DNA of 41,305 nt from a virus. The stretch lies in the IMG/VR virus record IMGVR_UViG_3300045589_000107; one strand, given 5' to 3'. The notes beneath the pieces are model-generated. The model saw only the letters and a list, made by a program, of their open reading frames with translations, ran no database searches and was not told the DNA's origin. Below, in pieces: positions 142 through 38,490 of the stretch (position 1 is its first letter; every line of letters starts with the position of its first letter). The translations under genes and the position numbers were made by a program.

Positions 142-153
142 GGAGAGATCAAC

Positions 154-954
154 ATGTTAGCAGTACCAGAAGAGAATAACAAGCGCACTGAAGAAATGAC
201 ATTACCAATCAAACAGTTATCGCTGGCCCAGTACCAGCGGGGCCTGCAGTCAAAAACTGTTACTTATATTGTAACGCACTATGACCCGAAGGTCATGCTG
301 CCGATTGAAGTCAGTGCCCGAGATGGGCTGTATCTAGTATTGGACGGTCAGCACCGGATTGCAGCATTAACGCAGCTGGGTATCAAGACGGTTCGGGCAC
401 ACGTGCACTTTGGCATGACTGAATCTGAGGAAGCCGAGTTCTTCGCCGCACAAAACGGGTATGGCACATCAGTTGCCCGGTCAATTGAAAATGCTCACGC
501 CGCTCTGATTGCCGGTGATCCTGTAGTGCGGGAAATTAACGACATCGTGGAGCGCGAGGGGCTGCGGATTGCCTGGGATGGTAAGCAACGGTTTGGCTGC
601 GTGACTAAGTGGGTGCCATTGGAACAAGCCTATCGCAAGTATGGCGCCAGGAACTTAGCAATGACACTACGGGTGATGCATCAGTCCTTTGGTGGGGATC
701 CCAAAGCTTATCTGTCTTATTCCATTGCTGCACTGTCTAAGATGCTTGATCCTTATGATCATGACCCTAACTTAAAAAGCGCTACGTTGCTGGTGCGGGC
801 GTTGCATCGAGAAGGATACAAACGTCTTTATCAGCAGGCCAAAGACTTGGCGGCACAAACTCGAAGCAAATTAGCAGATGCAGCACGTGTGGTCTTTATT
901 GACGCGTACAACTACCGAAAGCCTGTCGACAAACGGCTGAGCAAGTTTCTGTAA
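154..954 (+). CDS. ParB/Srx-fold protein with DGQHR motif (DndB-like/ParB N-terminal domain)
   Basis: 266-aa ORF. RBS AGGAGAG lies 6 nt upstream of the ATG. Motif is LVLDGQHRIAALTQLGIKTV. Confidence 0.8.
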   Translation: MLAVPEENNKRTEEMTLPIKQLSLAQYQRGLQSKTVTYIVTHYDPKVMLPIEVSARDGLYLVLDGQHRIAALTQLGIKTVRAHVHFGMTESEEAEFFAAQNGYGTSVARSIENAHAALIAGDPVVREINDIVEREGLRIAWDGKQRFGCVTKWVPLEQAYRKYGARNLAMTLRVMHQSFGGDPKAYLSYSIAALSKMLDPYDHDPNLKSATLLVRALHREGYKRLYQQAKDLAAQTRSKLADAARVVFIDAYNYRKPVDKRLSKFL

Positions 955-967
955 AGGAGGAAGCAAA

Positions 968-1228
968 ATGAAGCTAACAATTGAAGCCAGCGCCACCGAA
1001 TTACAAAAAATGCTCCGGGCTATTGCAGGTAGCCAGGAGCACGAAGAAGGGTTTCAGTCCAGCAGCTCTGAAAACATTATCATGCCGCTATCAAGTGATC
1101 GCGTGAAAAAGATGTGGAATACATTATCTACCCTTTGCTTTCTCGGTCCAGATGGTTTTACGTGTCTTTCTGATCAACATAAATCTGACCATTTCGTGAC
1201 AAAATCGGATAATTTGAAAAAGCAATAA
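968..1228 (+). CDS. Hypothetical protein (86 aa)
   Basis: Strong RBS AAGGAGG lies 7 nt before the ATG. The 3' 71 nt overlap the convergent gene 1158..1439. Confidence 0.55.
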   Translation: MKLTIEASATELQKMLRAIAGSQEHEEGFQSSSSENIIMPLSSDRVKKMWNTLSTLCFLGPDGFTCLSDQHKSDHFVTKSDNLKKQ

Positions 1229-1439
1229 GCGTTTTCATTTTCTGATCAAAATCAGTGAAAAGCAAAACTCCATCCGAATTTCGCATATACGCCTGGAAAT
1301 GGTATCCGTCTGCTTTAGCATAGTGATCTAACATTTTCGCGTTGGGACGAGTAGCAACTTTTATTGAAGCAATTTCATTGCTGACAAGCCGGTAATTCAT
1401 GTCGGGCCAGGGCAGATCCGTTATTTCTTTGATCTCCAA
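1158..1439 (-). CDS. Hypothetical protein (93 aa), reverse-oriented inside the early operon
   Basis: TTG start is preceded by AAGGAGG at 8-9 nt on the - strand. A globular-looking sequence and a 226-bp spacer separate it from the next + gene. Confidence 0.6.
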   Translation of the reverse strand: MEIKEITDLPWPDMNYRLVSNEIASIKVATRPNAKMLDHYAKADGYHFQAYMRNSDGVLLFTDFDQKMKTLIAFSNYPILSRNGQIYVDQKDT

Positions 1440-1665: not shown

Positions 1666-2031
1666 ATGCTGCTGGGGACAAAAATAGAAGCCAATGTCAA
1701 CGGAATGGCTCTGATGATCCAACTGCCAACTGGGCTTCACGTCGTTGACGACGAATACGTAGCAGAACACGACGCCGCTCTGGCAAGAGCGGATATGGCC
1801 GGATGGTGGACAATGCCGGAATTGGTAAAACGATATCACCAGAATCCAACTTGGTTTGCAGACAACGTGTTTCAAGTTCCGCGGTTCATGAAAGTTCTTC
1901 GAGGGCAATGTGTCATGTACCCGCGTGAAGGCGTCAAGGGCTATACATGTGAGCCGGAAGCATTTGGAGAGTTCATGAAAAAGTGGTTTCCAGAAATTGC
2001 CAGGAACGCAATGAAAGGTGGCAAATCTTAA
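1666..2031 (+). CDS. DUF771-like protein
   Basis: An internal ATG at 1666 has RBS AAGGAGG. The sequence WWTMPELVKRYHQNPTWFADNVFQVPRFMKVLRGQCVMYPREG resembles the DUF771 family. The N-terminal extension from 1537 is rejected. Confidence 0.7.
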   Translation: MLLGTKIEANVNGMALMIQLPTGLHVVDDEYVAEHDAALARADMAGWWTMPELVKRYHQNPTWFADNVFQVPRFMKVLRGQCVMYPREGVKGYTCEPEAFGEFMKKWFPEIARNAMKGGKS

Positions 2032-2177
2032 TGGAACCAATTGATCAGTATCGGTTAGAGACAGTCGAAGCCTACCGAGCACAAGCGTCAAGCGACTGGC
2101 AGAAGCAGTTAGCAGACAGCATTTACATGCGTTTGTTGATCAGCTGCCGCAAGAAAGAAATGGAGGAACAACGATGA
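2031..2177 (+). CDS. Hypothetical small protein (48 aa)
   Basis: TAATG stop/start overlap with the upstream gene, in the operon reading frame. Confidence 0.5.
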   Translation: MEPIDQYRLETVEAYRAQASSDWQKQLADSIYMRLLISCRKKEMEEQR

Positions 2178-10799: not shown

Positions 10800-10858
10800 C
10801 CATGCACAGCTACGTGCACTAACAAGTGATAAATACAGTATAACACAGGAGCGTGGCC

Positions 10859-11317
10859 ATGGTGCGGGTAACACAACGATTTTCAAGAGTAGACAGGGAC
10901 AAAACAGCGGCCAATGCGGAAAATATCTTAATCCAGTATCCGCATCGAAAAGCGATGGCAATGAGCCGTGAAAACACGCTAGCATCACCAGCTATGGACG
11001 GTATGCCGCGAATCCCGTCGGTTGAAAACCATGCGGACGATAAGATCATCAATTATCTCGAAAATGACGACAAGCAATTCTGCGATAGGTGCGAAAAGAT
11101 CATCAACACACTTTTGCCCCAAACGGCAGTCAACGATAAATGGCCGATCATCCTCAAGATGCGCTACGTGACGCTTAAACCACTGTCTGACGACGTGATA
11201 ATGGAACGTGTGGGCTATCAGTCGAGCCAGTATTACGAAGCCGTCAAAGACGCTCTATGTGCGTTTGCTGAGTGGTGGCCGAACTATCCAGGAAGCCTCG
11301 TCGTCAGCAAATTCTAG
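10859..11317 (+). CDS. ArpU-family late transcriptional regulator
   Basis: AGGAG lies 7 nt before the ATG at 10859. The position just upstream of the packaging genes and the sequence ILKMRYVTLKPLSDDVIMERVGYQSSQYYEAVKDAL fit the ArpU family. Confidence 0.8.
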   Translation: MVRVTQRFSRVDRDKTAANAENILIQYPHRKAMAMSRENTLASPAMDGMPRIPSVENHADDKIINYLENDDKQFCDRCEKIINTLLPQTAVNDKWPIILKMRYVTLKPLSDDVIMERVGYQSSQYYEAVKDALCAFAEWWPNYPGSLVVSKF

Positions 11318-11379
11318 ACCGGACATTTACCGGACAAACACCGGACAAAGACCGGACACAAACCGGAGTGATTCGGACG
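11318..11379 (+). promoter_or_regulatory. Six phased direct repeats (ACCGGACA-type, 11-bp period), putative late-activator binding array
   Basis: The CGGA cores start at 11320, 11331, 11342, 11353, 11364 and 11374. The array begins right after the arpU stop and abuts a -10 box. Confidence 0.7.
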
Positions 11380-11388
11380 TATTATAGT
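11380..11388 (+). promoter_or_regulatory. Late promoter -10 region (TATTATAGT) without a recognisable -35
   Basis: TATTAT/TATAGT overlap at 11380..11388. The -35 position is occupied by the repeat array. Confidence 0.55.
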
Positions 11389-11454
11389 ATTGTGCCAATT
11401 TGAAGGACAGCCTGCGAAAGCTTTCTTCTATGAAACCTCCTTTCATTGATTGGC

Positions 11455-11497
11455 GCGGCGAATGGTTGAAAGCCGGGTTCGATTCCCGGTCGCCGCA
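11455..11497 (+). ncRNA. tRNA-like minihelix: perfect 7-bp acceptor stem plus canonical T-arm, with no D or anticodon arms
   Basis: GCGGCGA-aatggttgaaag-CCGGG-TTCGATT-CCCGG-TCGCCGC-A. Confidence 0.5.
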
Positions 11498-11613
11498 TTG
11501 CCCTCAAATTCTATATAAAGGATGTGGTATGGCTCACTCCTTCTTGCAATCGATGTGTTCATACCTGAGGGCAAAAAAAGTCATGCGATGACCCGTAAGG
11601 CGAGCGTGGCAGT

Positions 11614-11686
11614 GCAATCGTAGCGTCAATGGTAGAGCATCTGGCGAAAAAACTAGATTGTGCGGGTTCGATTCCCGCCGGTTGCA
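11614..11686 (+). tRNA. Degenerate tRNA-like gene (73 nt) with an 8-nt anticodon loop CGAAAAAA lacking U33
   Basis: Acceptor GCAATCG/CGGTTGC (one G-U pair). D-arm GCGT-CAATGGTA-GAGC has one mismatch. Anticodon stem is TCTGG/CTAGA. T-arm is GCGGG-TTCGATT-CCCGC. No encoded CCA. Confidence 0.5.
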
Positions 11687-11782
11687 TAAGCCCACCAAAC
11701 TTTCGAAAGGAAGCGAAGACCGCCTGAACTCGGTCGTGGGCTGAAAAAAATAAATTACTAGGTTACGAGGAATTGTAACAAT

Positions 11783-11812
11783 ATAGGCGCTGCCATGGGC
11801 GCCTATTTTAAT
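11783..11812 (+). terminator. Terminator-like hairpin immediately upstream of the methyltransferase gene
   Basis: ATAGGCGC-tgccatgg-GCGCCTAT followed by TTTTAAT. Confidence 0.45.
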
Positions 11813-11829
11813 GCGCTAATGGAGATAAT

Positions 11830-12801
11830 ATGAAAAAAACAGAAAAATGGAAACGCGGATTACCCTATGTTGGCAATAAGGGCCAAAAGGCAGAAAAGAT
11901 CATCGGCATCTTGCCTGCCGGCCACCGTTTCATTGACGTATTCGGGGGGGGCGGATCAATCAGCCTGACAGCAGCCTCATCTGGTAAATGGGACGCAGTA
12001 GTTTACAATGACCAGCGAAAAACGGTTGTTAGTCTGTTGAAAGCGTTGATCGAAGACAACCCTCATTTTAATTTGATGAATTATGTGTATATGGATCGCG
12101 AAACGTTTTACAACTGGCGAGACAGCATGCCTGATTCGATTGAACGTACTCTTGTGTTGACCGTTTGGAGCTTTAGCAACAACCTACACGATTATTTGTG
12201 GGGAAAGAAAATCGAAAAAGACAAATTGCAACTGACGCGAGCAATCTTTTGGGGAGACACAGGGACAAAGCTTGATGACCTTTATACATACACAAAAAAT
12301 GAAGCCACTATTTCTGACAAATATCAGATGTTTCACAAATGGCGATTGGAAAAAATGAATATTCACGGTCGTTATGACATGCTCCAGCAGCTCCAGCAAC
12401 TACAGCAACTCGAGCGACTACAGCGACTACAGCAACTACAGCAACTCGAGCGACTACAGCGACTACAGCAACTACAGCAACTCGAGCGACTACAGCAACT
12501 ACAGCAACTACAGCAACTAAATTCGATTGAATATTCAACGTTAGATTATCGATTTCTTAACATAAAAAATGATGATATTGTTTATTGCGATCCGCCCTAC
12601 TTTGGCACGGGTGAGGATTACGGTGGCTTTGACAATGAATCATTTCAGCACTGGCTTGCTAACTGTCCAGCAAAGCAAATCTATATAAGCGAATACACAC
12701 AGCTGCCTCATACCGAGGTGGCTTTTATTTTAGGAAAAAAGCTATCTTTTCAGGCCAAAGGCAAGCGACCTGACGAACTACTGCTTAAATACGTAAAGTA
12801 A
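11830..12801 (+). CDS. D12-class (Dam-like) N6-adenine DNA methyltransferase with an internal LQQ repeat
   Basis: Motif I is IDVFGGGGSISL and motif IV is VYCDPPYFGT. The N-terminus is LPYVGNKGQKAEKII. RBS GGAGA lies 5 nt upstream. Confidence 0.85.
   Translation: MKKTEKWKRGLPYVGNKGQKAEKIIGILPAGHRFIDVFGGGGSISLTAASSGKWDAVVYNDQRKTVVSLLKALIEDNPHFNLMNYVYMDRETFYNWRDSMPDSIERTLVLTVWSFSNNLHDYLWGKKIEKDKLQLTRAIFWGDTGTKLDDLYTYTKNEATISDKYQMFHKWRLEKMNIHGRYDMLQQLQQLQQLERLQRLQQLQQLERLQRLQQLQQLERLQQLQQLQQLNSIEYSTLDYRFLNIKNDDIVYCDPPYFGTGEDYGGFDNESFQHWLANCPAKQIYISEYTQLPHTEVAFILGKKLSFQAKGKRPDELLLKYVK
12382..12519 (+). repeat. In-frame tandem repeat: 15 x 9 bp (CTACAGCAA-type), higher-order 36-bp unit x3
   Basis: Encodes LQQLQQLQQLERLQRLQQLQQLERLQRLQQLQQLERLQQLQQLQQL. 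It contains three CTCGAG sites. Confidence 0.95.
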
Positions 12802-37213: not shown

Positions 37214-38380
37214 TTATAGCTTAGACAAGGCTTTAACTGTGGCGCTGATTTGGTCTAACTCGACGTCTTTAAGCATGTGAGCGTAAACGCGAAGCGTGAT
37301 CTGGACGTTGGCATGTCCCAGCCGTTTGGAAATGTAACTAATATCCACGCCGTGAGCCAGTAGATAAGCAACATGACTGTGCCGGAGACCGTGGAATGTG
37401 ATCACGGGGTTGATGCCCAGCTTTTGCTCAATGTCTTTGAGGTGGCGGTTGACGATGCCATTGCTCAGTAGCTCATGGCGATAGTTGCGGAATACCAGAT
37501 GATACGGGTCCCGGTAACCTGTCGCCAGATTGCTGGCCTCTTGCTCGGTTTTGAGTTGGCGCAACAGCGCCACGAGTTGTGGAGAAATATCAATATCTCT
37601 GTTACTGGTCGGATTTTTCGTTGGCATGAAGCCAGTCCTAAATTTGTAATCCCATGTGTGCCGAATGTGCACTACAGCGTTGTCCAGATCCACATTGGGC
37701 CAATCCAATCCGCCAACCTCTGCGTATCTTGCACCAGTGAGAATGCCAAAGGCAATCATGTAGTTGTAAATCTTGGATAGCTTCGCGTTGCCTGTGCAAA
37801 ATTTGAGCAACTTATCAAAGTCGTCTGCTTGAATATATTTAAGGTCGGCGGCTTTACCTTTGTTTCCGGAGAGGACAACATCATGCGTAAAGTTGGTGTA
37901 CAGTATCTGGTCATCAACGGCAGAGTTGACCATTGCCCGGACGTACCCGTTGAGTTTACTGACGGTGTCCTTTGACCGATTAACAATTGCCTTTTTATTA
38001 CCAATACGTTTGACGCGGTGTGTGGCAAAATGATTGATGAATGCTTGCCAGTCGCTTTTGCTAATAGTGCGCAGCTTTCGGCTAGTGCCAAAATAGTCGA
38101 CCAGTTCCTTACGAATTGTCGCATAGCGGGCCTCAGTGACACGCGTATGCTTGCCGGCTTTGTAAAGGTCAATCCAGCGATCCCAATATTCTATGAGGGT
38201 CGTGTCTTGCTTGTTCAAGTCAGCGCCCTGCATCAAATGATGCTCCACTTCAGCCGCAGCATTTTCTGCCATCTTTTTTTTAGCGAACCCACCCAATGTT
38301 TTCTGATGTCGCACCCCGTTTGAATCCGTATAATTGACCACGTACGTCCAGGTTTTTCCACGTTTGCGAAAGCTTGCCAT
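37214..38380 (-). CDS. int: Tyrosine recombinase / phage integrase
   Basis: The start is trimmed to MASFRKRGKTWTYVV (RBS GGGAGG). C-terminal catalytic motifs are HGLRHSHVAYLL and RLGHANVQITLRVYAH. Confidence 0.93.
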   Translation of the reverse strand: MASFRKRGKTWTYVVNYTDSNGVRHQKTLGGFAKKKMAENAAAEVEHHLMQGADLNKQDTTLIEYWDRWIDLYKAGKHTRVTEARYATIRKELVDYFGTSRKLRTISKSDWQAFINHFATHRVKRIGNKKAIVNRSKDTVSKLNGYVRAMVNSAVDDQILYTNFTHDVVLSGNKGKAADLKYIQADDFDKLLKFCTGNAKLSKIYNYMIAFGILTGARYAEVGGLDWPNVDLDNAVVHIRHTWDYKFRTGFMPTKNPTSNRDIDISPQLVALLRQLKTEQEASNLATGYRDPYHLVFRNYRHELLSNGIVNRHLKDIEQKLGINPVITFHGLRHSHVAYLLAHGVDISYISKRLGHANVQITLRVYAHMLKDVELDQISATVKALSKL

Positions 38381-38490
38381 TGTGTTTACCTCCCAATCTG
38401 GTAAAATAGGGTATACGAAGAGCGTTGCCTTACGAATGGCTTTCATGGCATCGCTCTCCCACTCCATTCATTCAATTTTTCACCCTTGCT

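What the first reader, a model, noticed from the sequence alone, without database searches (positions are those of the whole stretch)
11455..11686. Two non-canonical tRNA-like elements in the late-operon leader
Seen in sequence:
- 11614..11686 folds as a 73-nt cloverleaf with a good acceptor stem (GCAATCG/CGGTTGC) and a textbook T-arm (GCGGG-TTCGATT-CCCGC).
- Its anticodon stem (TCTGG/CTAGA) closes an 8-nt loop, CGAAAAAA, that has no U33. The D-stem has a mismatch and no CCA is encoded.
- 11455..11497 is a 43-nt minihelix: a perfect 7-bp acceptor stem (GCGGCGA/TCGCCGC), a canonical T-arm (CCGGG-TTCGATT-CCCGG) and discriminator A. Only 11 nt (AATGGTTGAAAG-like, a D-loop remnant) replace the D and anticodon arms.
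- TGCAATCG, the 5' acceptor half of the second element, also occurs at 11546..11553.

Inference: these are unlikely to be decoding tRNAs. Options are RNase P/RNase Z processing signals that cut the late leader, decoys for host anticodon nucleases or tRNA-targeting defence systems, a frameshift-suppressor-like tRNA (8-nt loop), or decayed tRNA genes.
Basis: partly seen in the sequence, partly recalled or inferred. Interest (0 to 1): 0.65.

Follow-up and report, generated by a model that had tools for sequence, protein, structure and literature searches.

The report
tRNA-like punctuation in phage late leader
Two tRNA look-alikes that cannot decode sit in the untranslated leader of this Lactobacillus-type phage's late genes; they are conserved across a whole group of dairy phages and most likely serve as cutting signals for the host's tRNA-processing enzymes, which has not been tested.

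Summary
11614..11686 passes the Rfam tRNA model (45.9 bits), yet ARAGORN calls no tRNA. It has an 8-nt anticodon loop without U33 and a bulged D stem. 11455..11497 is a 43-nt acceptor/T-arm minihelix. The repeated 8-mer TGCAATCG occurs at chance level.

Both elements lie in a 512-nt intergenic leader. Upstream are an ArpU-type late activator gene, five ACCGGA repeats at 11-bp spacing and a TATTATAGTATTGTGCC promoter motif. Downstream is a terminator-like hairpin.

The same modular leader occurs in about 25 metagenomic or genomic relatives, and 45 published phage records match the J-1 version of it (J-1, PL-1, A2, phiAT3, Lc-Nu, Lrm1 and others). Some of its spacer modules also lie in the ROOL-linked tRNA island of myophage Lbab1.

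Across these, the 12-bp acceptor/T-arm stack covaries strongly. The anticodon arm is variable, aberrant or absent. No CCA is encoded, and a U always follows the discriminator.

These are therefore conserved, non-decoding tRNA-like modules, not a frameshift suppressor and not random decay. The best mechanism is inferred only: RNase P/RNase Z punctuation of the late leader, as with plant mitochondrial t-elements or mascRNA. I found no prior description.

The parts
11318..11372 (+). Five ACCGGA(C/G) repeats at 11-bp spacing; probable binding sites for the ArpU-type late activator encoded at 10853..11317
   Evidence: the repeat finder gives four overlapping 22-nt copies spaced 11 nt apart. The repeat number varies among relatives, and the other leader types have different repeats at the same place. 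The activator role is inferred from the gene's PHROG match (phrog_248, 1.7e-31) and from the RinA/ArpU literature (PMC3152322).
11380..11396 (+). Promoter-like motif TATTATAGTATTGTGCC (-10 region, no -35); predicted start of the late leader transcript a few bases downstream
   Evidence: The motif TAT[TG]ATnnTATT[GA]TGCC is conserved in every leader type, including J-1, A2, Lc-Nu and T25. The sigma-70 scan does not call it, because it has no -35. The transcription start site is not mapped.
11402..11446 (+). Two 5' hairpins; the second (11430..11446) displays CCUCC in its loop (11436..11440), within ACCUCCUUUC, which resembles an anti-Shine-Dalgarno sequence
   Evidence: The MFE structure is, but z = -0.1, so it is not significant alone. 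A CCUCC/CUCCCC motif lies 9-33 nt upstream of module 1 in all five leader types.
11455..11497 (+). Module 1: 43-nt tRNA-like minihelix with a 7-bp acceptor stem, an 11-nt linker containing GG, a canonical T arm and discriminator A; no D or anticodon arm and no CCA
   Evidence: Sequence and fold are. It sits 70-76 nt after the start of the -10 motif in three leader types, with different acceptor sequences: GCGGCGA/TCGCCGC, AGGACGG/TCGTCCT, GGTGGTG/TGCCATC. In the covariation test 97.4% of cells are paired, 9 of 12 pairs change on both sides, and 0 of 500 shuffles reach this.
11498..11574 (+). Spacer domain closed by the long-range stem UUGCCCUCA/UGAGGGCAA, which starts at the first base after the module 1 discriminator
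   Evidence: The fold of 11498..11613 gives -37.6 kcal/mol, z = -3.6. The stem is kept in relatives with G.U and other changes, while its interior varies or is replaced.
11580..11610 (+). K-turn-like hairpin GUCAUGC-GAU-GA-C-CC-GUAA-GG-C-GA-GCGUGGC: C-stem, 3-nt bulge, tandem G.A/A.G, then a short capped stem; it ends 3 nt before module 2
   Evidence: The motif table covers 22 variants from leaders and the Lbab1 island. The GA on the 5' strand is invariant. The opposing dinucleotide is GA in 20 variants and GG in 2. The C-stem covaries between leader types, the bulge varies and the cap length varies. The K-turn assignment comes from my comparison with the consensus and was not tested; there is no Rfam hit.
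11614..11686 (+). Module 2: 73-nt tRNA-like cloverleaf with a 7-bp acceptor stem (one U.G), a D arm with a bulged G, an anticodon-like arm (5 bp plus the 8-nt loop CGAAAAAA, no U33), a canonical T arm and discriminator A; no CCA
   Evidence: RF00005 scores 45.9 bits and ARAGORN calls nothing. Elements at the same place have the same kind of acceptor and T arm but very different or missing anticodon arms. In the covariation test 98% of cells are paired, 10 of 12 pairs change on both sides, and at most 1 of 500 shuffles reaches the observed value on any measure.
11689..11742 (+). Three-way junction module AGCCCAC / CUUUC-GAAA-GGAAG / GACCG-CCUGAACU-CGGUC / GUGGGCU, starting 2 nt after the module 2 discriminator
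   Evidence: The fold gives -21.8 kcal/mol, z = -3.2, with 0 of 200 shuffles as stable. The sequence is nearly invariant in distant leader types: an exact-pattern scan returned 14 viral contigs. There is no Rfam hit.
11783..11812 (+). Terminator-like hairpin AUAGGCGCU-GCCAUG-GGCGCCUAU followed by UUUAAU, just upstream of the SD (GGAGA) and the ATG at 11830 of the first late gene
   Evidence: The fold is (z = -2.2 for 11750..11829). The simple terminator scan does not call it, because the U run is short. Each relative examined has a hairpin plus T run at this place. In several of them (J-1, L137, L145, R23.9, BH1, P7.1) an anti-SD/SD pairing is part of it or wraps around it.

Best explanation
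The two elements are conserved, non-decoding tRNA-like modules built into the structured leader RNA of the phage's ArpU-dependent late transcription unit.

What selection keeps is the top half of a tRNA. That is a 7-bp acceptor stem stacked on a 5-bp T stem with a GGUUCGAUUCC T loop, a GG-containing D-loop surrogate or D arm, an unpaired discriminator, no encoded CCA, and a U right after the discriminator. This set is what RNase P, RNase Z and the CCA-adding enzyme need, according to published work on minihelix substrates that I recall but did not re-check.

I therefore propose the following, all of it inferred:
- Host RNase P cuts at 11454/11455 and 11613/11614.
- Host RNase Z cuts after A11497 and A11686.
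- These cuts release a 43-nt and a 73-nt tRNA-like RNA.
- They also free the structured spacer 11498..11613, which holds the long-range stem and the K-turn-like hairpin.
- The downstream late RNA is left with a new 5' end that pairs into a stable helix within 0-2 nt (UUGCCC... and UA-AGCCCAC...). Such a helix would shield it from 5' exonuclease.

Shown here: the structures, their conservation and covariation, their fixed place in the leader, and the loss of anticodon function. Inferred: transcription from the late promoter, cleavage by RNase P and RNase Z, and any stabilising effect.
For: (a) tRNA-likeness. RF00005 scores 45.9 bits for module 2. The MFE of module 1 is the minihelix. Both carry GGTTCGATTCC, which matches the GGTTCRANYCC motif used to find plant t-elements.

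(b) Not decoding. ARAGORN finds nothing in the window. Elements at the module 2 position have 4-nt hairpin loops (L009; GGC-AUAA-GCC in A2, L065, L001), a 7-nt loop GCAAAAA (L135), 6-nt loops (Lc-Nu, CL2, called 'tRNA-???' or annotated 'tRNA-OTHER'), no arm at all (L136, L159), or are bare minihelices (L152, L166).

(c) Selection on the acceptor/T-arm stack. For module 1, 97.4% of cells are paired and 9 of 12 pairs change on both sides. For module 2 the figures are 98% and 10 of 12. At most 1 of 500 shuffles reaches the pairing, double-change or covariation-score values; the count of additional pair types is weaker (4 of 500 for module 1). Sliding the partner columns drops pairing to 24-56%. 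About 19 of the 156 module 1 cells are G.U pairs, which points to an RNA read from the + strand.

(d) Fixed place. Module 1 lies 70-76 nt from the -10 motif in three leader types with unrelated acceptor sequences. Module 2 follows the K-turn-like hairpin by 2-6 nt.

(e) RNase Z signature. No module encodes CCA, and every module has T at +1 after the discriminator. B. subtilis RNase Z acts on CCA-less precursors and is stimulated about 200-fold by a U within 2 nt of the discriminator (PMC10100781). It cuts directly after the discriminator (PMC8549757).

(f) Precedent. t-elements are non-canonical tRNA-like structures in mRNA leaders and trailers that direct RNase P/RNase Z cleavage (PMC1920247).

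(g) The same spacer modules lie between tRNA genes in the tRNA island of myophage Lbab1. This ties the leader to tRNA-type transcription and processing units.
Against: - No RNA ends, cleavage data or expression data exist for any of these phages in what I could search, so every processing step is inferred.
- A terminator-like hairpin lies between the leader and the first late gene. The leader may therefore be a separate small-RNA unit, or it may work through antitermination rather than processing.
- Some positional homologues have T loops that depart from the consensus (UCCGAGU, UCUGAUU, UGCAAAU) or a 6-bp T stem. These should be poorer RNase P/RNase Z substrates.
- The K-turn-like hairpin sits only 3 nt upstream of module 2 and could hinder RNase P.
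- The fixed distance of module 1 from the promoter, the strongly conserved K-turn-like element and the three-way junction suggest a concerted RNA machine rather than mere punctuation.
- The T at +1 may simply be part of the conserved downstream stems.
Confidence: 0.5

Rival explanations
1. The tRNA-like modules are structural or recruiting domains of one large cis-acting riboregulator: 5' anti-SD-like hairpin, minihelix, K-turn, cloverleaf, three-way junction and terminator. This RNA would control late genes by letting RNA polymerase read through the terminator, or by gating the Shine-Dalgarno sequence of the first late gene. tRNA mimicry would be used to bind a host factor rather than to be cut.
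For: - A terminator-like hairpin precedes the first late ORF in each leader examined, in several with an anti-SD/SD pairing in or around it.
- Module 1 lies at a fixed distance from the promoter.
- The K-turn-like and three-way-junction modules are conserved more strongly than the tRNA-like modules.
- The leader travels with the ArpU gene and promoter, whatever the first late gene is.
Against: - The modules are exchanged, duplicated or dropped freely between phages. The leader can be as small as module 1 plus the hairpin (R23.9, L145), which is unlike a single co-folded machine.
- The same spacer modules work in a tRNA island without ArpU (Lbab1).
- No known antiterminator RNA family matches.
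Confidence: 0.25
2. The modules are released as small RNAs that act in trans as decoys or sponges. Their targets would be host defence toxins or enzymes that recognise the acceptor/T-arm or the CCA end of tRNAs, for example acceptor-stem nucleases, or nucleotidyl- or pyrophospho-transferase toxins.
For: The conserved part is the acceptor/T-arm half, so only an acceptor-directed target would fit. The modules would be made at high level from a late promoter. That phages carry tRNA variants to escape tRNA-targeting defences is my own knowledge, not tested here.
Against: - Late expression is poorly timed for countering abortive-infection toxins.
- Acceptor sequences differ widely between phages of the same hosts, so no specific tRNA is mimicked.
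- The fixed cis position argues against a purely trans role.
- No defence-related gene was linked to the elements.
- An anticodon-nuclease decoy is excluded by the non-conserved or absent anticodon arms.
Confidence: 0.1
3. They are remnants of an old phage tRNA gene cluster that are decaying without function (pseudogenes).
For: The anticodon arms are degenerate. One published record annotates such an element as 'tRNA-OTHER'. Some relatives carry fragments such as a partial initiator-like tRNA-Met. The window minihelix looks like a deletion derivative of a three-arm form: its TGGTTGAAA linker matches the extra arm in L160.
Against: Decay would not preserve 12 stacked base pairs through many compensatory changes. 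It would not keep module 1 at the same leader position across the leader types examined, in sequences that include 45 phage records matching the J-1 leader and about 25 metagenomic loci. It would not keep the CCA-less, U+1 3' context throughout.
Confidence: 0.07
4. Element 2 is a working decoding tRNA, for example a quadruplet-reading frameshift suppressor that uses its 8-nt loop.
For: The Rfam tRNA score is above threshold. The 8-nt loop is identical in four independent assemblies, so it is not a sequencing error.
Against: There is no U33 and the D stem is bulged. ARAGORN rejects it. The loop is not conserved outside one close lineage, and elements at the same place lack any anticodon arm. 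No CCA is encoded.
Confidence: 0.02
5. The sequences act at the DNA level, as an integration core (attP copy of a tRNA 3' end), a packaging site or a replication origin.
For: Temperate phages often carry tRNA 3' fragments at attP. BH1-type phages integrate into a tRNA-Ser gene (PMC6950654).
Against: - The elements lie about 26 kb from the integrase gene (37214..38467).
- Both acceptor strands are present.
- Many G.U pairs make the structure strand-specific. For module 2, the minus strand folds worse.
- The position downstream of the late promoter is conserved in phages with different integration and packaging modules.
Confidence: 0.02

Closest known systems
Plant mitochondrial t-elements (tRNA-like processing signals in mRNA leaders and trailers)
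   Same: Non-canonical cloverleaves or minihelices that keep the GGTTCRANYCC T-arm motif and an acceptor stem. They are embedded in untranslated parts of longer transcripts. They are proposed, and in part shown, to direct RNase P and RNase Z cuts that create mRNA ends (PMC1920247).
   Different: Here the elements are in a bacteriophage late leader, occur as two or more modules with conserved structured spacers (K-turn-like hairpin, three-way junction), and no cleavage has been shown.
mascRNA / MEN-beta tRNA-like modules of MALAT1 and NEAT1 (Rfam RF01684)
   Same: A tRNA-like structure with an acceptor and T arm but a defective or absent anticodon function. By my recollection it is cut by RNase P and RNase Z to define the ends of a long RNA and to release a small tRNA-like RNA. 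The minihelix gives its best + strand Rfam hit to this family (23.9 bits, E = 0.034).
   Different: The score is far below the family's gathering threshold of 42.5, so there is no homology. Those RNAs are vertebrate nuclear lncRNAs, and their 3'-end triple helix is absent here.
tRNA-like domain of tmRNA
   Same: An acceptor stem plus T arm plus a D-loop surrogate, without an anticodon arm. This is the same architecture as module 1.
   Different: There is no mRNA-like reading frame, no pseudoknots and no G3.U70. ARAGORN and the Rfam tmRNA models find nothing beyond the T arm. The two strands are joined by 11 nt rather than by about 300 nt.
Phage tRNA islands with associated large structured RNAs (ROOL, GOLLD)
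   Same: A phage location and a mix of tRNA(-like) genes with conserved structured non-coding RNA. In Lbab1 a ROOL RNA (201 bits) and a tRNA-Ser-like gene are directly followed by spacer modules also found in the J-1-type leaders. One of these modules, the K-turn-like hairpin, has a counterpart in this window. tRNAs are sometimes embedded in GOLLD linkers (PMC12286853).
   Different: The ROOL and GOLLD covariance models do not match the window or the siphophage leaders. The tRNA-likes here are non-decoding, and the unit is driven by the late promoter.
Small phage RNAs matured by RNase P (P1/P7 C4 RNA, P4 CI RNA, T4 stable RNA species 1 and 2)
   Same: Phage transcripts that use tRNA-like features so that host RNase P matures them (my recollection, not checked here).
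   Different: There is no sequence or structural relation. Those RNAs are regulators in Gram-negative phages, not acceptor/T-arm minihelices in a late leader.
Frameshift-suppressor tRNAs with 8-nt anticodon loops (sufD-type)
   Same: An 8-nt anticodon loop on an otherwise tRNA-like body.
   Different: Suppressors keep U33 and a defined four-base anticodon and are charged and used in translation. Here U33 is absent and the loop is not conserved among homologues.

Membership tests
Canonical decoding tRNA | Cloverleaf recognised by tRNA gene finders | tested here: inconclusive
   Rfam RF00005 scores 45.9 bits (gathering threshold 29) for 11614..11686, but ARAGORN reports no tRNA in the window. 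The minihelix is found by neither. tRNAscan-SE was not available.
Canonical decoding tRNA | 7-nt anticodon loop with U33 and a purine at position 37, closed by a 5-bp stem | tested here: not met
   The loop is CGAAAAAA, 8 nt, with G where U33 would be. Module 1 has no anticodon arm at all.
Canonical decoding tRNA | Anticodon arm conserved among orthologues | tested here: not met
   Positional homologues carry 4-, 6-, 7- or 8-nt loops, long inserts or no arm. ARAGORN calls them 'tRNA-???' or gives implausible anticodons such as aaa, or taa on a 3-bp stem.
Frameshift-suppressor tRNA | 8-nt loop with U33 and a conserved four-base anticodon | tested here: not met
   There is no U33. The loop is present only in the window, L003, L011 and L147.
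tmRNA | tRNA-like domain plus a tag reading frame and pseudoknots; detected by ARAGORN or the Rfam tmRNA models | tested here: not met
   ARAGORN finds no tmRNA. The only tmRNA-model matches are 17-nt T-arm matches of 11-13 bits, against gathering scores of 47-84.
t-element / mascRNA-type processing signal | Acceptor stem stacked on a T arm with the GGTTCRANYCC motif, and non-canonical or missing other arms | tested here: met
   Both elements contain GGTTCGATTCC flanked by 5-bp T stems and 7-bp acceptor stems. The stack covaries in relatives.
t-element / mascRNA-type processing signal | Embedded in the untranslated part of a longer transcript | tested here: inconclusive
   The elements lie in a 512-nt intergenic region between a conserved promoter-like motif and the first late ORF, on the coding strand. 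Transcription itself was not observed.
t-element / mascRNA-type processing signal | 3' context suited to RNase Z: no CCA after the discriminator, and a U within 2 nt | tested here: met
   The contexts are A|UUG (module 1) and A|UAA (module 2). Every module in all relatives has T at +1 and none has CCA. The rule is taken from PMC10100781.
t-element / mascRNA-type processing signal | Actual cleavage by RNase P at the 5' end and RNase Z at the 3' end | not testable with these tools
   This needs RNA-end mapping or in vitro cleavage. No such data were found in the literature searches.
ROOL / GOLLD large phage RNAs | Match to the Rfam covariance models RF03087 / RF01998 | tested here: not met
   There is no match in the window, even at E up to 10 for 11000..12100, nor in the siphophage relatives. 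ROOL is found only in Lbab1, upstream of the shared spacer modules.
Kink-turn (for the hairpin at 11580..11610) | C-stem, 3-nt bulge, tandem sheared G.A/A.G pairs, then a non-canonical stem | tested here: inconclusive
   The sequence pattern TGC-NAN-GA-y-CC[cap]GG-n-GA-GCG fits. The GA on the 5' strand is invariant. The opposing GA is GG in 2 of 22 variants. The C-stem covaries. The three-dimensional kink and protein binding cannot be tested here.

The most novel reading that the evidence does not exclude
The whole leader of about 430 nt is a new class of modular, multi-domain phage RNA. It comprises an anti-SD-like hairpin, a tmRNA-TLD-like minihelix, a K-turn hairpin, an anticodon-less cloverleaf, an invariant three-way junction and a terminator or SD-sequestering hairpin. 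It is evolutionarily tied to ROOL-bearing tRNA islands. In this reading it uses tRNA mimicry to couple late-gene expression to the host's tRNA-processing or translation machinery. That coupling could be processing-dependent release of the SD or of a 5' stabiliser, or recruitment of a K-turn protein or RNase P for terminator read-through.
Probability: 0.2. Interest if true: 0.85.

Novelty: new variant of a known kind. Interest (0 to 1): 0.62.

Why it matters
If these modules are processing signals, tRNA punctuation would extend to the late operon of temperate Gram-positive phages. Until now it is known from organelles and from a few nuclear long non-coding RNAs. It would also explain odd 'tRNA-OTHER' or 'tRNA-???' calls, and some spurious small ORFs, in well-known dairy phages (J-1, PL-1, A2, phiAT3, Lc-Nu).

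It gives a testable handle on how ArpU-type late transcripts are matured, stabilised and made translatable in phages that spoil Lacticaseibacillus fermentations. The sharing of spacer modules with a ROOL-linked tRNA island offers a new comparative clue to what ROOL/GOLLD-type phage RNAs do near tRNAs.

Practically, phage annotation pipelines should not count these elements as decoding tRNAs.

Tried and rejected
- blastn (distant mode) of 11300..11800 against 50,697 phage records found nothing. The relation to the J-1-type leaders only emerged by following the ArpU gene, because the similarity is confined to short patches.
It hit ordinary tRNAs in unrelated bacteria, and only L065 (Schleiferilactobacillus harbinensis) was relevant.
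- The metagenome scan with the promoter motif gave mostly chance hits; only L145 and L147 were relevant.
- The homology search with the ArpU protein returned just four clusters.
- A conserved small ORF was rejected. The 63-aa ORF at 11400..11591 has no family match. Length differences in relatives shift its frame, and in L145 most of the region it spans is absent.
- The idea that TGCAATCG at 11545 forms an alternative pairing partner for the module 2 acceptor was rejected. The count is at chance level, and the copy is kept in relatives that lack module 2.
- Membership of tmRNA, Y RNA, T-box, ROOL or GOLLD was rejected for lack of any covariance-model match.
- An attP origin was rejected on distance from the integrase gene and on the presence of both acceptor strands.
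- A look at a Streptococcus pyogenes prophage (Javan459) with a distant ArpU homologue showed a similar -10 motif, a lone GGTTCGATTCC and a terminator, but no clean tRNA-like arms. I did not pursue it.
- Literature searches found no description of these elements.
Full report
**What is in the window.** The window is a temperate siphophage of the Lacticaseibacillus/Schleiferilactobacillus type.
- Its structural genes are 74-81% identical to Lacticaseibacillus phages.
- A near-identical leader lies on a Schleiferilactobacillus harbinensis contig (L065).
- The gene at 10853..11317 encodes an ArpU/DUF1492-type late transcriptional activator (phrog_248, 1.7e-31; 34-40% identical to the ArpU genes of Lc-Nu, J-1, PL-1, T25 and BH1).
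- A 512-nt intergenic region follows (11318..11829).
- After it come a D12-class adenine methyltransferase, an exonuclease, a thioredoxin-like gene and the large terminase. The integrase is far away at 37214..38467.

**The observation.**
- 11614..11686 matches the Rfam tRNA model over its full length (45.9 bits against a threshold of 29). The alignment needs one extra base in the D stem and one in the anticodon loop.
- ARAGORN reports no tRNA or tmRNA anywhere in the window.
- Read directly, the anticodon-like arm is TCTGG/CTAGA closing CGAAAAAA. That is 8 nt with no U33. No CCA follows the discriminator A11686.
Its only Rfam matches are sub-threshold; the best on the + strand is mascRNA-menRNA (E = 0.034).
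- GGTTCGATTCC occurs only at these two sites.
- The 8-mer TGCAATCG recurs at 11545..11552, not 11546..11553. Three copies against 2.33 expected is chance.

**Context: a late leader.**
- Upstream of the elements are five ACCGGA repeats spaced 11 bp apart (11318..11372) and the motif TATTATAGTATTGTGCC (11380..11396).
- That motif, TAT[TG]ATnnTATT[GA]TGCC, is conserved downstream of the ArpU gene in every relative I found. Different phages place different phased repeats in front of it.
- It has no -35, so the sigma-70 scan misses it. This fits an activator-dependent late promoter. ArpU/RinA proteins sit upstream of the morphogenetic cluster and RinA activates the late promoter; the ArpU role has been proposed but not tested (PMC3152322).
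- A terminator-like hairpin with a short U run (11783..11812) lies just before the SD and the ATG at 11830. Each relative examined has a hairpin plus T run there, and in several an anti-SD/SD pairing is part of it or wraps around it.

**Relatives.**
- Exact-pattern scans, ArpU-based locus searches and look-ups of ArpU homologues gave about 25 metagenomic or genomic loci.
- Following the ArpU gene into published genomes showed the same architecture in J-1, T25 and Lc-Nu.
- A blastn search with the J-1 leader then hit 45 phage records. They include PL-1, A2, phiAT3, Lrm1, CL1, CL2, iLp84, iLp1308, PLE3, BH1, LJ and the R/C/P series.
- I found no description of these elements in the genome papers or elsewhere. 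CL2 carries a 'tRNA-OTHER' feature on one of them, and several records annotate small hypothetical ORFs over the region.

**The leader is modular.** Its order is:
1. promoter
2. a 5' part of about 60 nt with a CCUCC-type motif
3. tRNA-like module 1
4. a stem that starts at the base after the discriminator (A|UUGCCC or A|UUGUCC)
5. a conserved hairpin of the form TGC-NAN-GA-y-CC[cap]GG-n-GA-GCG
6. zero to three further tRNA-like modules
7. further structured modules
8. a terminator or SD-sequestering hairpin

Module 1 is present in all five leader types. In one relative, P7.1, its 3' acceptor strand has been replaced and the stem no longer pairs. Module 2 is optional: it is absent in L145, R23.9, BH1 and P7.1.

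**Module 1, the minihelix.**
- It sits 70-76 nt after the start of the -10 motif in three leader types whose acceptor stems are unrelated in sequence: GCGGCGA/TCGCCGC, AGGACGG/TCGTCCT and GGTGGTG/TGCCATC. L163 shows a compensatory G-C to A-U change.
- Two further types (GCGGYUU/AAGCCGU, and GUGGCAA/AUGCCAC in J-1-like phages) have longer middles.
- I aligned 13 distinct acceptor-plus-T-arm sequences with the linker removed. In this alignment 97.4% of cells pair, 9 of 12 pairs change on both sides, and no shuffle in 500 reaches these values. Sliding the partners drops pairing to 37-56%.
- One caveat: I chose the 5' strands by pairing, so the percentage paired is partly built in. The fixed offset and the 7 of 7 pairs in independent lineages are not.
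- Many pairs are G.U, so the structure belongs to the + strand RNA.
- The linker always contains GG two to five bases after the acceptor strand. This suggests a surrogate for the D-loop G18-G19, as in the tmRNA tRNA-like domain (inference).
- L160 and the J-1 type carry an extra hairpin in the linker. The window's linker TGGTTGAAA matches the 5' half of the L160 hairpin, so the 43-nt form is probably a deletion derivative that was kept.

**Module 2, the cloverleaf.**
- The elements that follow the conserved hairpin share acceptor stems of the GCAAYCG/CGRUUGC kind, or covarying alternatives (GCAUCUG/CAGAUGC, ACCGUUG/CAACGGU, GCAACUG/CAGUUGC), and canonical T arms.
- In this alignment 98% of cells pair, 10 of 12 pairs change on both sides, and at most 1 of 500 shuffles reaches the observed values.
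- The anticodon region is free to vary:
  - the 8-nt loop only in the window, L003, L011 and L147, which are four independent assemblies, so it is not an error
  - a 4-nt hairpin in L009
  - a conserved GGC-AUAA-GCC mini-hairpin in A2, L065 and L001
  - GCAAAAA in L135
  - 6-nt loops in Lc-Nu and CL2
  - virtually no arm in L136 and L159
  - a bare second minihelix in L152 and L166
  - long inserts in other module types
- ARAGORN either rejects these elements or labels them 'tRNA-???', Phe(aaa) or Leu(taa).
- Selection therefore acts on the top half of the tRNA shape and not on decoding. This excludes a frameshift suppressor and an anticodon-nuclease decoy, and it is the opposite of random decay.

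**Mechanism.**
- From what I recall of published work on minihelix substrates (not re-checked here), an acceptor/T-arm stack with a discriminator is what RNase P, RNase Z and the CCA-adding enzyme require.
- None of the modules encodes CCA, and every one has T at +1 after the discriminator.
- B. subtilis RNase Z processes CCA-less precursors. It is stimulated about 200-fold by a U within 2 nt of the discriminator, and it cuts right after the discriminator (PMC10100781; PMC8549757).
- Plant mitochondrial t-elements are the close functional precedent. They are non-canonical tRNA-like structures recognised by the GGTTCRANYCC motif, placed in mRNA leaders and trailers, that direct RNase P/RNase Z cuts (PMC1920247).
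- I therefore propose tRNA-style punctuation of the late leader. Cuts at both borders of each module would release two small tRNA-like RNAs and the structured spacer 11498..11613.
- The downstream RNA would then start 0-2 nt before a stable helix (UUGCCCUCA..., z = -3.6; AGCCCAC three-way junction, z = -3.2). Such a helix could protect against 5' exonuclease. This last step rests on general knowledge of 5' stem-loop stabilisers in Firmicutes and is speculative.
- No step of this mechanism has been observed.

**Arguments for more than punctuation.**
- A terminator or SD-sequestering hairpin follows the leader.
- Module 1 lies at a fixed distance from the promoter.
- A CCUCC motif lies upstream of module 1 in all five leader types. 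In the window it is ACCUCCUUUC, which resembles the 3' end of 16S rRNA as I recall that sequence.
- The K-turn-like hairpin is very strongly conserved. Its 5'-strand GA is invariant, the opposing GA is GG in 2 of 22 variants, and the C-stem covaries.
- The 54-nt three-way junction is nearly invariant.

Together these suggest a concerted regulatory RNA. I keep this as the main rival and as the most novel reading.

**Link to tRNA islands.** In the L. casei myophage Lbab1 a ROOL RNA (RF03087, 201.5 bits) and a tRNA-Ser-like gene are directly followed by several of the same modules:
- the roughly 150-nt insert also seen in Lrm1 and BH1
- the UUGUCC hairpin
- the K-turn-like element
- a spacer segment also found upstream of module 2 in Lc-Nu, Lrm1 and CL2

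The ROOL and GOLLD models do not match the window or the siphophage leaders. The shared modules nevertheless tie this leader to the phage tRNA-island world in which ROOL and GOLLD reside (PMC12286853, PMC5737381).

**Verdict.**
- The finding is confirmed and is larger than reported: two conserved, non-decoding tRNA-like modules of a modular structured late leader common to L. casei-group and Schleiferilactobacillus phages.
- The kind of element is known (t-element or mascRNA-like tRNA mimic).
- The setting, the minihelix form and the accompanying conserved RNA modules appear undescribed.
- I rate it a new variant of a known kind, with interest 0.62. My confidence in the processing mechanism is moderate (0.5). 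My confidence that these are functional, non-decoding tRNA-like RNA structures is high.

Noticed in passing
window 11580..11610: Hairpin with a kink-turn-like signature (C-stem GUCAUGC/GCGUGGC, bulge GAU, tandem GA/GA, CC-GUAA-GG cap). It is conserved in all leader types and in the Lbab1 tRNA island, always 2-6 nt upstream of the second tRNA-like module. It is a possible binding site for an L7Ae-family protein.
   Followed up: partly
window 11689..11742: A 54-nt three-way junction (AGCCCAC / CUUUC-GAAA-GGAAG / GACCG-CCUGAACU-CGGUC / GUGGGCU). It is nearly invariant in sequence across otherwise divergent leaders and has no Rfam match. It is conserved more strongly than the tRNA-like modules.
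   Followed up: partly
window 11434..11443 (loop at 11436..11440): ACCUCCUUUC, which resembles the 3' end of 16S rRNA (from memory). Its CCUCC is displayed in the loop of a small hairpin. A CCUCC/CUCCCC motif lies upstream of module 1 in all five leader types, so it may be an anti-SD element.
   Followed up: partly
window 11318..11372: Five ACCGGA(C/G) repeats at exactly 11-bp spacing in front of the late -10 motif. Relatives have 4-6 copies, or a different repeat (TCCGGAA, CGTAAG), at the same place. They are probably specificity sites for each phage's ArpU protein.
   Followed up: partly
window 11783..11812; L169 (J-1), L145, L137, L181: A terminator-like hairpin sits between the leader and the first late gene in each phage examined. 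In several relatives an anti-SD (UCACCUC) pairs with the SD (GAGGUGA) of the first late gene around that hairpin. This implies that read-through and SD release must be regulated.
   Followed up: no
L182 (phage Lbab1, MT758689.1) 147..719 and 739..1400: A ROOL RNA (201.5 bits) lies next to a tRNA-Ser-like gene. It is followed by the same spacer modules as the siphophage late leaders.
   Followed up: partly
L004, L005, L065, L161, L175 (JNU_P9), L177 (R24.2): A third kind of tRNA-like module. It has a class-II-like D arm (UG-GCGGAAUAGGUAGACGC), acceptor AUCACUG/CAGUGAU, a 6-bp T stem and the odd T loop UGCAAAU. A structured insert of 60-90 nt replaces the anticodon arm.
   Followed up: no
L176 (Lrm1), L178 (BH1), L182 (Lbab1): An insert of about 150 nt (UUUCACCCGUGAAGG...GGUCGUGGCAC) is shared by two temperate phages and the myophage. 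In the temperate phages it lies between module 1 and the UUGUCC hairpin; in Lbab1 it follows the tRNA-Ser-like gene that occupies the module 1 position. It looks like a mobile or exchangeable RNA module.
   Followed up: no
L137 700..766, L135 3908..3979: An initiator-like tRNA-Met piece (C1.A72 mismatch, canonical CUCAUAA loop) with defective D and acceptor parts lies in some leaders. This is the reverse pattern of the other modules.
   Followed up: no
L184 (Streptococcus phage Javan459) 1670..1900: Downstream of a distant ArpU homologue lie a similar -10 motif (TTATTATAGTAC), a lone GGTTCGATTCC without clean stems, and then a strong terminator. This may be a degenerate counterpart in S. pyogenes prophages.
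   Followed up: partly
L172 (CL2) 803..875; L169 (J-1) 2018..2167; L173 (A2) 866..1045; L174 (LJ) 571..900: Published annotations place a 'tRNA-OTHER' feature (CL2) or small hypothetical ORFs (J-1, A2, LJ) over this leader RNA. These are probably mis-annotations.
   Followed up: partly
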